Positions 43,301 through 46,300 of a stretch of 64,000 nucleotides of DNA are shown piece after piece; positions within the stretch are counted from its first letter, which is position 1; each line of letters starts with the position of its first letter. Source of the DNA: Lingula anatina (taxonomy: Eukaryota > Animalia > Brachiopoda). A program made the translations under genes and the position numbers. Where the stretch lies: the NCBI GenBank assembly GCA_051362555.1, contig CM120642.1:13330001-13394000 (forward strand). Reading direction: 5' to 3'. Under the pieces are notes generated by a model, which was not told the DNA's origin, did not search any database, and saw nothing but the letters and a program-made list of their open reading frames with translations.

Positions 43301-46300
43301 TTTACTTTATTACTATCTTCAGTGTAATACTGAAATTTTTATTTGAATTTTTGTATTGCAAAATTTGTAAGATTCTTCAGGGGTATGAATAATGGGAGAT
43401 CACTCTATAAAACTTGTCCTTTTAATGTCATATATGAATTTTACTATATAATAATTAACTTGTCTTGTTTGCATCCCCTTATCCTTAACAGTGTACATTG
43501 TACCTCTCGAGTTCTTTGTCTTGCAAAAAATAAAAAAGGAGGTCATTTATCTGAATGTACGTGATCTCTGTTATCTCCAAAATAACCCAGGTTTCAAAAT
43601 GTTACCTACATCTAACATTTCATTGTGAACCTTACATTTTTCACACATAGCATGTCAGACAAAGAAGATTAATCATTAATATTTATCAGAGAAAAACTGC
43701 CTCTCCCAAGATTAACAAATAAGAACATTGTTTTAAGATCTATTTACATATCCCAAGAACTAAAAATCACCCCCAGATAAATTATCCCTAGACACCATCA
43801 CATAAGCAGCATGCAAATTCCAAATTGTCATTCCAACTGTAACCAAGTCTAGAAGCAATGGCATCAACTTCTGCAGCTATTGTGTTACTAGTATGCAGTC
43901 TCCTTGCTGTACTCAGCGAGGCAATTCCAACTGACCAATGTGTGTACAGCTTCCAGGTACCCAAAGTGCAGAGCAGCTGTGACCTAGAGCTACAGCAGTC
44001 CACGGAGAAACTCAACAACTCGGTGCAAGTCTTAGCAAACCACACCACCAGAGAAATTGCCATCCTCAACTCCACTGTGCAGGTCTTAAATGGTCAAACC
44101 GCTACAGAAATAGCAGCACTAAACAACACTTTACAAGACTTTAAAAATGACATGTCAAGAGATTATAAGGTACTAGAAAGCATCACCACTGCACTGAGGC
44201 TAGAACTTTCCCAATGTGTGGCTCATGGTAGAGAGACGGAACAAAGGCTTGCTAATATCACTGCACAAATCTCCCATCTTGAAAAAAAGGTGCTTGAAAT
44301 TCAAAAAGGCAATGCTCCAAGCATCCCGATGATAAACAGTGTAACCCAGTGGACAAGATTTGCCTTCAGCTATGATGACCGCTGGAATGATTGCCATGGA
44401 GATCAGTATGTCAAACTAAGTGGCTACAACCCTGGAAAATATGTGGGAGTAGTTCTCTGTAATCCATCGCGATATAATATTTTCTTAAGTGACGATCTGA
44501 AGGATACTTTCCTTAACATAGGTGATGGTACTGGTTCAGGAAAAGATCACTGTGAATTTGTTGGAGGCAAAGATGACAGTAATGCAAAAGTGTCAGCAGA
44601 TAGCAAGCCTCCATCACGCCTTAACATAACAGGTAAATTAATTATGATTTGAAATAACTGATTTAAAAAAAGTGGGGTATGATTTTTTTAACATAGTGCT
44701 TTTACATATCTGCACATCCACAATAATGGGTAATAACAATGGGTTATCAGCTTTGAAAGTCTGTCAAACGATTCCTATGTATTGGATTACAATTGGGGTG
44801 CTTTCATATGAAAGGGGATGGGTTTCTCTTATTATAACAAACAATTTTGTGTTTCAAACATTGCTGTGTATTTTAAACTTTTTAATTCTTAAAATTCTAG
44901 AAATGACACTAAAAAGCACTTAATTCTAGGAAACAGACATAACCGGCCTGTTTTGCAGCTATACATTATGGAAAAGAAAGCTCTCAGAATAGTATTGTCA
45001 TGTTTCTTTACTGTACACACACTGGAAAAAAAATTGCTCTACGCAAATTTTGACAGGTGGAGAAAACAAGTTGTGCATTACCATCGCATCCATTTTCAAC
45101 TTCAGAACAAAGTATTATCTCCCATACACTTGAACTATGCAAATCATTCAGTTTTGGGATTTTAATGCCTTAAACACACACTGCTTTTCATAAAACAACG
45201 TGTAAGGAAATCCTGTCATCTGAGTGTGTTATCACAGATGTTATGACCCATTCCTGTTTCGTTTCCTTCTGACACACACGACAGCAAAACCACAGCTAGT
45301 GTGTAGTTTACTTTCCCCATTCAGATTTGGCCCAGGGACTTAGCATAAATAGTGCAGATTTAAACTGTTAACGTAATGATCCAGTCACATAAATATTTAA
45401 TGAGTCTAATTAAAATTAGCTATATCTGGTTCACACTTTTTGGCACGTAACTCACAAAAATCTATTTCATGTCATCGCTGTTTAACTGCTGATTCAGGAT
45501 CGCAGCATTCTTTCCCAACTCTGTGAAGTTAGGTTTACTCTTTCCTGATAATTTTAGTATGTGTTGAATGTTACCTTTTCCAAAATTGATGAATATGAAG
45601 CAAAATATGACGCATTATCTAAGTGGAAAGCATGTTCACAAGATCGGGTCCATGTTGAAATTTTGATGCCCATGTCCCAATGTCGTTACCCAGTATCATG
45701 GACATGCAGACATATCTTTTTTGAAAATTTGGCTTATATACTTTTCTTCCATGGTTAATATTTTCACAGGATATACAAGACATCTTTGGGGTAAAAACTT
45801 AAAAACTGGCCTTCCTATCAGGGACACATCACCTAATTACTGGACCCCAAAATGGTATGAATGTGGAATATCTATACCATGACAACTATAAACCAGCAAT
45901 ACCATGGAAACACCCAGGGACCAACAACATGAAGGAGAGCTTAAACTTGAACTGGTATAATAATTATATGACATCTACCACTGCAATGATATTTCACACA
46001 TCTAGCAATGATATTTCACACAAACAACAAAATGTCTAATCAACAGATATTATACTAAAAAGTAAGATAGAAAGTCTATCTCAGAGTCTAACCATCACCT
46101 GGATTCAATAAAGCAAAGTTTTTACTTATAAATGTTGCTTGTCATTACATGGCTACTACCTTGGGTAACTTGGGTGGGCACGGCAGCCATGGTCTGCCTA
46201 CGACCTTTCATGTGGTTTCTTTTGCTGAGTGATGACCGTCTGCTGCCAGATGCCAGTGTCGGAGCCTTTCTGACACTCTTCTTATCCAGAGATGCCCGTT

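What the first reader, a model, noticed from the sequence alone, without database searches (positions are those of the whole stretch)
43858..45882. Secreted 'angiopoietin-scaffold' protein carrying a TARSH/FNDC1 C-terminal head domain
Seen: a 295-aa spliced ORF with signal peptide, [12 protein letters not shown] motif, ~110-aa coiled coil and a C-terminal domain ending WYECGISIP. Known: C-x-Y-[ST]-F-x-x-P plus a coiled coil is the oligomerisation scaffold of angiopoietins/ANGPTLs, which normally ends in a fibrinogen-C head. The head here instead matches the conserved C-terminus of ABI3BP/TARSH and FNDC1, which normally follows FN3 domains in >1000-aa matrix proteins. Inference: a domain-shuffled, multivalent secreted ligand, lectin-like or matrix protein in which TARSH_C is the stand-alone recognition module. 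It may represent an undescribed invertebrate immune, signalling or biomineral-matrix family.
Basis: partly seen in the sequence, partly recalled or inferred. Interest (0 to 1): 0.85.

Follow-up and report, generated by a model that had tools for sequence, protein, structure and literature searches.

The report
Secreted coiled stalk with swappable head
A two-exon reading frame inside another gene's intron encodes a likely secreted protein in which a cysteine-capped coiled stalk carries the poorly understood end domain of the human matrix proteins ABI3BP and FNDC1; the same design recurs in molluscs, amphioxus and an acorn worm, and it likely works as a many-headed binder outside the cell.

Summary
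The 295-codon spliced frame (GT-AG intron 44633-45769) encodes a hydrophobic leader, a Cys28-Cys41 cap, a ~110-residue coiled coil and a complete TARSH_C domain (Pfam PF21731, 114 bits for exon 1; exon 2 continues the profile). It lies antisense inside an RNA-proven intron of a CKAP2-like gene. No read spans its own intron in 8 thinly read runs, but homologues have an intron at the same glycine.

The scan earlier noted TARSH_C on a sea-urchin protease. I found no paper on this architecture. Verdict: new variant of a known kind.

The parts
43858..44632 (+). Exon 1 (coding): leader, Cys cap, coiled coil and first three quarters of TARSH_C; ends in a phase-1 Gly codon
43858..43923 (+). Predicted signal peptide, residues 1-22 (cleavage site inferred by eye)
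   Evidence: hydropathy peak 3.2; SignalP not available
43933..43980 (+). Cys cap, residues 26-41 (C28-x-Y-S-F-x-V-P...C41)
   Evidence: 13.3 bits on an independent cap profile, best of 1000 shuffles 7.8; C, P, C invariant in 23 aligned caps chosen by a pattern containing the first C and the P
43981..44313 (+). Coiled coil, residues 42-152: 3.6-residue period, three degenerate 18-residue repeats (52-105), five N-glycosylation sequons, Cys120 in the modelled core
   Evidence: trimer model 0.72 against best control 0.00
44350..44632 (+). TARSH_C head, first part (residues 165-258; Cys179, Cys201, Cys232)
   Evidence: Pfam PF21731 E 7.9e-33
44633..45769 (+). Intron (GT-AG, 1137 nt), containing repeat-like stretches
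   Evidence: same position in homologues; no junction read; reads that run on unlike at about 44700-45010 and 45440-45760
45770..45882 (+). Exon 2 (coding): last 37 residues of TARSH_C with Cys290, then TGA
   Evidence: Pfam PF21731 profile 94-127, E 2.8e-4
43204..46159 (-). Intron of the host CKAP2-like gene, inside which the whole gene is nested antisense
   Evidence: joint 43203/46160, 2956 nt skipped, CT..AC, 21 reads in X2 and 8 in X3; seven RNA-defined exons join into a 589-aa open frame; Pfam CKAP2_C E 2e-5 and 2e-6
46107..46112 (+). Candidate polyadenylation signal AATAAA, 225 nt after the stop and still inside the host intron (untested)

Best explanation
The frame encodes a likely secreted glycoprotein whose coiled coil is predicted to bundle several chains (three in the model) so that several TARSH_C heads would bind an extracellular partner at once, most likely as a cross-linker of matrix or cell surfaces. 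Steps: (1) leader-driven secretion and N-glycosylation of the stalk (inferred from sequence); (2) parallel in-register coiled coil over residues 42-152 (modelled); (3) cap cysteines 28 and 41, and perhaps Cys120, lock chains or join bundles into larger disulfide-linked multimers, as reported for the N-terminal regions of noelin, angiopoietin-1 and amassin (inferred by analogy); (4) each head, a compact four-cysteine domain, binds weakly and multivalency supplies avidity (inferred from its interchange with fibrinogen and olfactomedin heads, which are the binding ends of their proteins); (5) the ligand is unknown. A matrix or cell-surface ligand is favoured because the vertebrate bearers are matrix proteins and nearly all partner domains are extracellular.
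For: Head identity. Cap significance. The design is conserved: 25 of the 150 best hits have the cap; named examples are Lymnaea, Patella, Mactra, Sinanodonta, three Branchiostoma proteins and Glandiceps, and Crassostrea and Candidula proteins also have it. Head swap: amphioxus P0026 (TARSH_C) and P0182 (named angiopoietin-related protein 7-like, Fibrinogen_C) share the first ~150 residues at 45% identity, E 6e-43, with no match in the heads. P0039, P0183 and P0184 carry Pfam Noelin-1 plus TARSH_C. Homo-oligomer: score 0.72, best of 3 controls 0.00, runs agree in at least 90% of contacts, pLDDT at least 82. That mark was reached by 21 of 30 solved homodimers and 0 of 23 single chains in microbes; in eukaryotes by 17 of 29 (animals 7 of 16) and 0 of 30. 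The head folds confidently in two homologues (pLDDT 92.8 and 91.7). [quoted passage not shown] The Olfm1 CXCX9C region is needed for oligomers (PMC4463452, passages). The Ang1 N-terminal domain superclusters (PMC4609988, passages). ABI3BP is a matrix and cell-adhesion protein acting through integrin beta-1 (PMC6426741, passages).
Against: No ligand, tissue or phenotype is known. Expression is not shown: no junction read and only trace depth (about 1-2x at most) over the exons in 8 runs. The trimer pass may come from likeness to solved coiled coils (only 1 of 7 eukaryotic pairs without an older solved relative passed), the calibration was for two copies, and dimers or tetramers were not modelled; noelin and myocilin are dimers of dimers. 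Cap residues 26-38 are not among the confident contacts, so disulfide superclustering is untested. The only binding report I read for an FNDC1 fragment containing this domain is for the intracellular G-beta-gamma (PMC12914184, passages: residues 1523-1894), which does not fit an extracellular ligand. The query's own complete head was not folded; homologues were.
Confidence: 0.5

Rival explanations
1. A soluble pattern-recognition or agglutinating protein of the body fluid: the multimer would bind microbial surfaces or polyanions through an SRCR-like head, as class A scavenger receptors and invertebrate fibrinogen-related lectins do (those roles are recalled).
For: In both head models the only solved chains aligned over 81 or more residues are SRCR-bearing: 16 of 50 rows each (the SRCR label of some chains is recalled). 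The head is exchanged with a fibrinogen domain. It occurs with PAN, Sushi, WAP, CUB and trypsin domains. The trimeric glycosylated neck resembles receptor and lectin necks.
Confidence: 0.22
2. A signalling ligand: the multimer would cluster one specific cell-surface receptor, as angiopoietin-1 does Tie2 and as proposed for noelin.
For: Same cap-coil-head logic (PMC4609988, PMC4463452, passages). Very low RNA depth fits a restricted signal. The head is strongly conserved (about 50% identity from invertebrates to the query).
Against: No receptor candidate. The head is reused on proteases and bacterial proteins, which fits a general binding module better than a dedicated ligand.
Confidence: 0.13
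3. A structural component of a biomineral or cuticle matrix (shell, girdle, radula or byssus).
For: The largest clade with this design is molluscan (support 99/99), and the query's head groups, without strong support (87/88), with two chiton coiled-coil + TARSH_C proteins.
Against: No acidic or low-complexity mineral-binding tract is visible in the sequence. The design also occurs in amphioxus and an acorn worm. No paper holds both 'Nesh-SH3' and 'mollus'.
Confidence: 0.08
4. A silent or decaying copy, or a wrongly joined model: the frame is not transcribed, or exon 1 is read through to the stop at 44652.
For: No junction read in 8 runs; most of the trace exon reads in the stranded runs X2 and X3 lie on the host gene's strand.
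Against: The frame is intact with all four head cysteines; exon 2 continues the Pfam profile in frame; the intron position is shared with homologues; and depth is too low to test.
Confidence: 0.07

Closest known systems
ABI3BP (TARSH) and FNDC1 (AGS8) of vertebrates
   Same: C-terminal TARSH_C domain (PF21731); truncated vertebrate-type models such as P0147 and P0111 end at about the same place as the query's intron; predicted extracellular location.
   Different: No FN3 domains or long Pro/Thr-rich spacer; 295 aa against up to about 1900; has a Cys cap and coiled coil. Vertebrate heads form their own clade (100/99) without the query.
Angiopoietins and ANGPTL / fibrinogen-related proteins
   Same: Signal + short Cys cap + coiled coil + C-terminal head (PMC4609988). 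An amphioxus ANGPTL7-like protein shares its stalk with a TARSH_C protein and scores 9.1 bits on the cap profile.
   Different: No fibrinogen-C domain; the query's own stalk is not detectably similar to that protein (E 0.49); no evidence of a Tie-type receptor.
Olfactomedin-family secreted proteins (noelin/Olfm1, myocilin, sea-urchin amassin)
   Same: Signal, short Cys-bearing beta region, long coiled coil with a cysteine, head (PMC2173732 section 11). The cap profile aligns both cysteines to noelin (5amo, E 0.011). Amphioxus proteins join Noelin-1 to TARSH_C.
   Different: No olfactomedin propeller; the query has CX12C rather than noelin's CXCX9C and no Noelin-1 hit of its own; it models as a trimer whereas Olfm1 is a dimer of dimers.
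Unnamed cap + coil + TARSH_C proteins of molluscs (about 545-843 aa), amphioxus (312-547 aa) and Glandiceps (491 aa)
   Same: Same cap, coil and terminal head. In databases they are 'uncharacterized' or 'Target of Nesh-SH3/FNDC1 C-terminal domain-containing protein'.
   Different: The query is the shortest complete example seen here, with a distinctive 18-residue-repeat stalk. No close orthologue was found (best head identity about 53%). The heads of these proteins are not one clade (p-AU 0.010).
Class A scavenger receptors and other SRCR proteins
   Same: Weak whole-domain structural likeness of the head; trimeric coiled neck in the model.

Membership tests
TARSH_C domain (Pfam PF21731) | Score above the curated cut-off over the whole profile | tested here: met
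   114.3 bits against 27 for exon 1 (profile 1-82); exon 2 matches 94-127 at E 2.8e-4
TARSH_C domain (Pfam PF21731) | Conserved cysteines and glycines and the terminal W-x-x-C-G-x-x-I-P | tested here: met
   C179, G197, C201, Y206 invariant and C232 nearly so in A3; fourth Cys and Pro invariant among complete homologues, C290 in the query
ABI3BP / FNDC1 | Fibronectin type III domains ahead of the head | tested here: not met
   no fn3 among the Pfam rows at E up to 5; the frame is only 295 aa
ABI3BP / FNDC1 | Head groups with vertebrate heads | tested here: not met
   the four vertebrate-type rows form a 100/99 clade without the query (131 columns)
Angiopoietin / ANGPTL | C-terminal fibrinogen-like domain | tested here: not met
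   the C-terminus is wholly TARSH_C
Angiopoietin / ANGPTL | N-terminal Cys cap and coiled coil homologous to angiopoietin's | tested here: inconclusive
   the cap profile retrieves an amphioxus ANGPTL7-like protein (E 9e-3, with its twin P0026 in the profile; 9.1 bits without it, against a best shuffle of 7.8); direct comparison E 0.49; no vertebrate angiopoietin sequence was retrieved to compare
Angiopoietin / ANGPTL | Binding to Tie receptors | not testable with these tools
   needs a binding assay
Olfactomedin family (noelin, myocilin, amassin) | Olfactomedin beta-propeller head | tested here: not met
   no OLF hit; the head is TARSH_C
Olfactomedin family (noelin, myocilin, amassin) | Noelin-1-type N-terminal region | tested here: inconclusive
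   not matched by the query itself; matched by relative P0039 (28.4 bits, cut-off 25); the cap profile hits noelin 5amo at E 0.011, but that profile contained P0039
Disulfide-linked coiled-coil multimers (works-like class) | Homo-oligomeric parallel coiled coil | tested here: met
   model only: score 0.72, best control 0.00, interface 42-152; chain number not compared
Disulfide-linked coiled-coil multimers (works-like class) | Inter-chain disulfides through the cap | not testable with these tools
   cap not confidently placed in the model; needs non-reducing gels and Cys mutants
SRCR superfamily | SRCR fold | tested here: inconclusive
SRCR superfamily | Sequence match to SRCR profiles | tested here: inconclusive
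   none among the Pfam rows or in a 12-sequence head profile searched against PDB sequences; no SRCR alignment was available for a profile-profile test

The most novel reading that the evidence does not exclude
TARSH_C is a further ancient extracellular recognition head, alongside the fibrinogen, olfactomedin, C1q and C-type lectin heads. It is a far-diverged SRCR-fold module shared by bilaterians and myxobacteria, repeatedly plugged onto angiopoietin- and noelin-type stalks to make an unrecognised family of multivalent ligands or agglutinins. Its ligand would also be the missing ligand of human ABI3BP and FNDC1.
Probability: 0.3. Interest if true: 0.8.

Novelty: new variant of a known kind. 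Interest (0 to 1): 0.55.

Why it matters
The TARSH_C domain ends two human matrix proteins whose general function is described as largely unknown (PMC6426741 says this of ABI3BP). I found no solved relative of the domain and no paper using its Pfam or InterPro identifiers among the 30 listed of 75 hits. Natural head swaps with fibrinogen and olfactomedin heads point to TARSH_C itself being the binding end. A 295-residue, naturally multimeric version is a ready probe for finding its ligand, and that result would carry over to ABI3BP and FNDC1. It also flags a conserved, unnamed secreted family across molluscs and invertebrate deuterostomes, and a domain shared between animals and myxobacteria.

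Tried and rejected
Expression: the run finder listed no RNA holder. Eight of nine same-species raw-read runs were laid (X6 was not) and gave no junction read, at a depth too low to decide.

No whole genome is held, so paralogue number, synteny and selection are untested. Within the window there is no second head or cap.

Word-seeded searches with the query (3 hits) and with alignment A3 (11 hits) found no close orthologue; these searches are limited and do not show absence.

Rejected readings: a lone, recent shuffle (25 of 150 relatives share the design); angiopoietin membership (no fibrinogen head); ABI3BP/FNDC1 orthology (no FN3, separate clade); and one single origin of all coil + TARSH_C proteins (p-AU 0.010; the tested group of 23 included four rows added after I had seen the first tree, so treat this as indicative). 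The host lineage is not settled: the head groups with two chiton proteins at 87/88 (unstarred), while the best pairwise matches include acorn-worm proteins.

Literature searches listed nothing on this architecture. The library lacks most subscription papers, and I opened no supplements, where proteome tables may list these proteins.

Full report
Observation. The frame starts at ATG 43858, runs to 44632, and resumes after a 1137-nt GT-AG intron at 45770 to end at TGA 45882, giving 295 residues. Residues 1-22 are hydrophobic (peak 3.2) with no later membrane-like stretch in exon 1. Cys28 and Cys41 flank the Y-S-F-x-V-P motif. Residues 42-152 show a 3.6-residue hydrophobic period, strongest of the eight periods tested, with three degenerate 18-residue repeats and five of the six N-glycosylation sequons. 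Pfam TARSH_C matches exon 1 residues 165-246 at 114.3 bits (cut-off 27, E 7.9e-33, profile 1-82 of 127), and exon 2 alone matches profile 94-127 (E 2.8e-4), so the two exons complete one domain. The nine other Pfam rows are sub-threshold coiled-coil matches.

Is the splice real? No RNA holder was listed. Eight of the nine same-species raw-read runs were laid, with 6-30% of each read. None gave a joint at 44632/45770, and exon depth was at most about 1-2 reads, so the direct test is uninformative. The indirect test is good. One search listed 49 proteins whose last head seemed cut short; I dropped six (the query and five that are complete or nearly so). Of the other 43, 38 have a glycine 24-32 residues after the DHC motif, and 35 of these are followed by K, E, R, M, Q or N, the residues expected when a phase-1 donor is read through. 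The query's own read-through has Gly at offset 29 followed by Lys. Two clusters contain both forms, and the forms diverge exactly after that glycine (P0018 against P0161; P0090 against P0166 and P0167).

Setting. The same reads show a minus-strand gene spliced from 46160 to 43203 (2956 nt skipped, CT..AC, 21 and 8 reads in X2 and X3) plus five other joints. Seven of its exons join into a 589-residue open frame, and exon-bearing frames of this gene match Pfam CKAP2_C. The finding is therefore nested antisense within one intron of a CKAP2-like gene. No second copy lies in the window, and no genome is held.

Relatives. HMMER against 1.84 billion representatives gave 341 proteins at E up to 0.001, of which 150 were listed. 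I scanned 79 of them with Pfam, chosen mostly as non-vertebrate-looking; 71 were not scanned. All 79 carry TARSH_C, alone, in up to six tandem copies, or with trypsin, CUB, MAM, LDLa, PAN, Sushi, WAP, EGF, Ig, TSP1, FN3, PKD or DUF4215 domains. A cap pattern in the first 200 residues is present in 25 of the 150. Named ones are Lymnaea, Patella, Mactra, Sinanodonta, three Branchiostoma proteins and Glandiceps, whose protein has an extra region between coil and head; two chiton (Liolophura) proteins have what looks like a coiled coil and the head without a recognisable cap. Databases call them uncharacterized or name only the domain.

Head swapping. A cap profile retrieved 21 proteins: 20 with TARSH_C and one amphioxus protein with a fibrinogen head, named angiopoietin-related protein 7-like. 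That protein, P0182, and the TARSH_C protein P0026 share their first ~150 residues (45% identity, E 6e-43) and nothing beyond. Amphioxus P0039, P0183 and P0184 join Pfam Noelin-1 to TARSH_C. The cap profile's top PDB sequence hit is noelin with both cysteines aligned (E 0.011, tied with a prefoldin coil and partly circular). The query itself is not detectably similar to P0182 (E 0.49). In trees of the heads (157 full heads, 74 after a redundancy filter, 55 without bacterial rows, 131 columns), the long mollusc proteins form one clade (99/99), vertebrate-type heads another (100/99), and the query joins the two chiton proteins without strong support (87/88). Holding all 23 coil-bearing rows together is rejected (p-AU 0.010; four rows were added after the first tree). 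The design has probably arisen or been reshuffled more than once.

Bacteria. A profile of 13 bacterial-looking relatives (my label; only P0055 is named Myxococcota by a source) found 24 loci among 56 candidate stretches in GTDB genomes. Fourteen of the 24 titles name myxobacterial taxa, including the isolates Chondromyces apiculatus, Hyalangium versicolor and Vitiosangium. The Chondromyces frame is a 356-residue protein with a lipoprotein-like leader and two head-like repeats ending in the same motif. The 19 bacterial rows lie on one side of a branch (SH-aLRT 92); direction of transfer was not tested.

Mechanism and comparison. The layout matches secreted cap-coil-head proteins. Amassin has a signal, a short cysteine-bearing beta region, a coiled coil and a head, and forms disulfide-bonded aggregates that adhere sea-urchin coelomocytes (PMC2173732: abstract and section 11 read). 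Olfm1 needs cysteines of its N-terminal CXCX9C region to oligomerise into a V-shaped tetramer proposed to cluster receptors (PMC4463452: passages). Ang1 has a superclustering N-terminus, a coiled coil and a receptor-binding fibrinogen head (PMC4609988: passages). In each the head is, or is proposed to be, the binding end, so I infer TARSH_C plays that part here. ABI3BP is a matrix and cell-adhesion protein of largely unknown function acting through integrin beta-1 (PMC6426741: passages), which favours a matrix or cell-surface ligand. An FNDC1 fragment (1523-1894) that contains the domain is reported to bind G-beta-gamma (PMC12914184: passages), which does not fit. I put 0.5 on a multivalent matrix or cell cross-linker, 0.22 on pattern recognition, 0.13 on a receptor-clustering signal, 0.08 on a biomineral matrix role and 0.07 on a silent or mis-modelled gene.

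Novelty. It is a member of the TARSH_C domain family, but not an angiopoietin, an olfactomedin or an ABI3BP/FNDC1 orthologue. Ten literature searches (listings seen, five papers opened in part, no supplements) showed no description of cap + coil + TARSH_C proteins; the library is limited to open papers. The scan's notes hold no look-alike stretch and one note on a sea-urchin protease with a TARSH-type tail. The design is a new variant of a known kind.

Noticed in passing
window 41074-47269 (minus strand): CKAP2-like gene, well expressed in runs X2 and X3, with six RNA joints; it hosts the finding in its 2956-nt intron. Some reads carry a 9-nt insertion at 46205.
   Followed up: yes
L001-L024, e.g. 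L011:2356-3426: TARSH_C occurs in bacteria, mostly myxobacteria, often doubled and behind lipoprotein-like leaders; an animal-myxobacterial shared extracellular domain.
   Followed up: partly
proteins P0009, P0051, P0060, P0069, P0081, P0087, P0187: TARSH_C is fused to trypsin-type proteases in acorn worms, a sea urchin and amphioxus, in two cases within CUB/MAM mosaics, where vertebrate membrane proteases carry SRCR domains (recalled).
   Followed up: partly
proteins P0013, P0019, P0009 (region next to TARSH_C): A shared, cysteine-bearing region of about 200 residues with no Pfam hit at E 0.001 accompanies TARSH_C in a gastropod and two acorn-worm proteins (seen by eye); possibly an unnamed domain.
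   Followed up: no
window 43951-44050: Three reads of run X7 match exon 1 from 43951 onward but carry a different upstream sequence of about 68 nt; possibly a paralogue or another allele elsewhere in the genome.
   Followed up: no
window 44690-45010 and 45440-45760: Stretches inside the gene's own intron attract reads at 90-95% identity that run on unlike: dispersed repeats with no second copy in the window.
   Followed up: partly
window 51754-52101 (minus) and 63028-63315 (minus): Exons of a STRA6-like retinol-binding-protein receptor gene (Pfam RBP_receptor, E 3e-9) and of a BAG6 gene (Bag6_BAGS, E 5e-11).
   Followed up: no
window 10526-12637 and 21171-21443 (minus): A 704-codon low-complexity exon and an upstream basic exon that resemble CRACD/KIAA1211-type proteins (recalled; no Pfam hit at E 0.1).
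   Followed up: no
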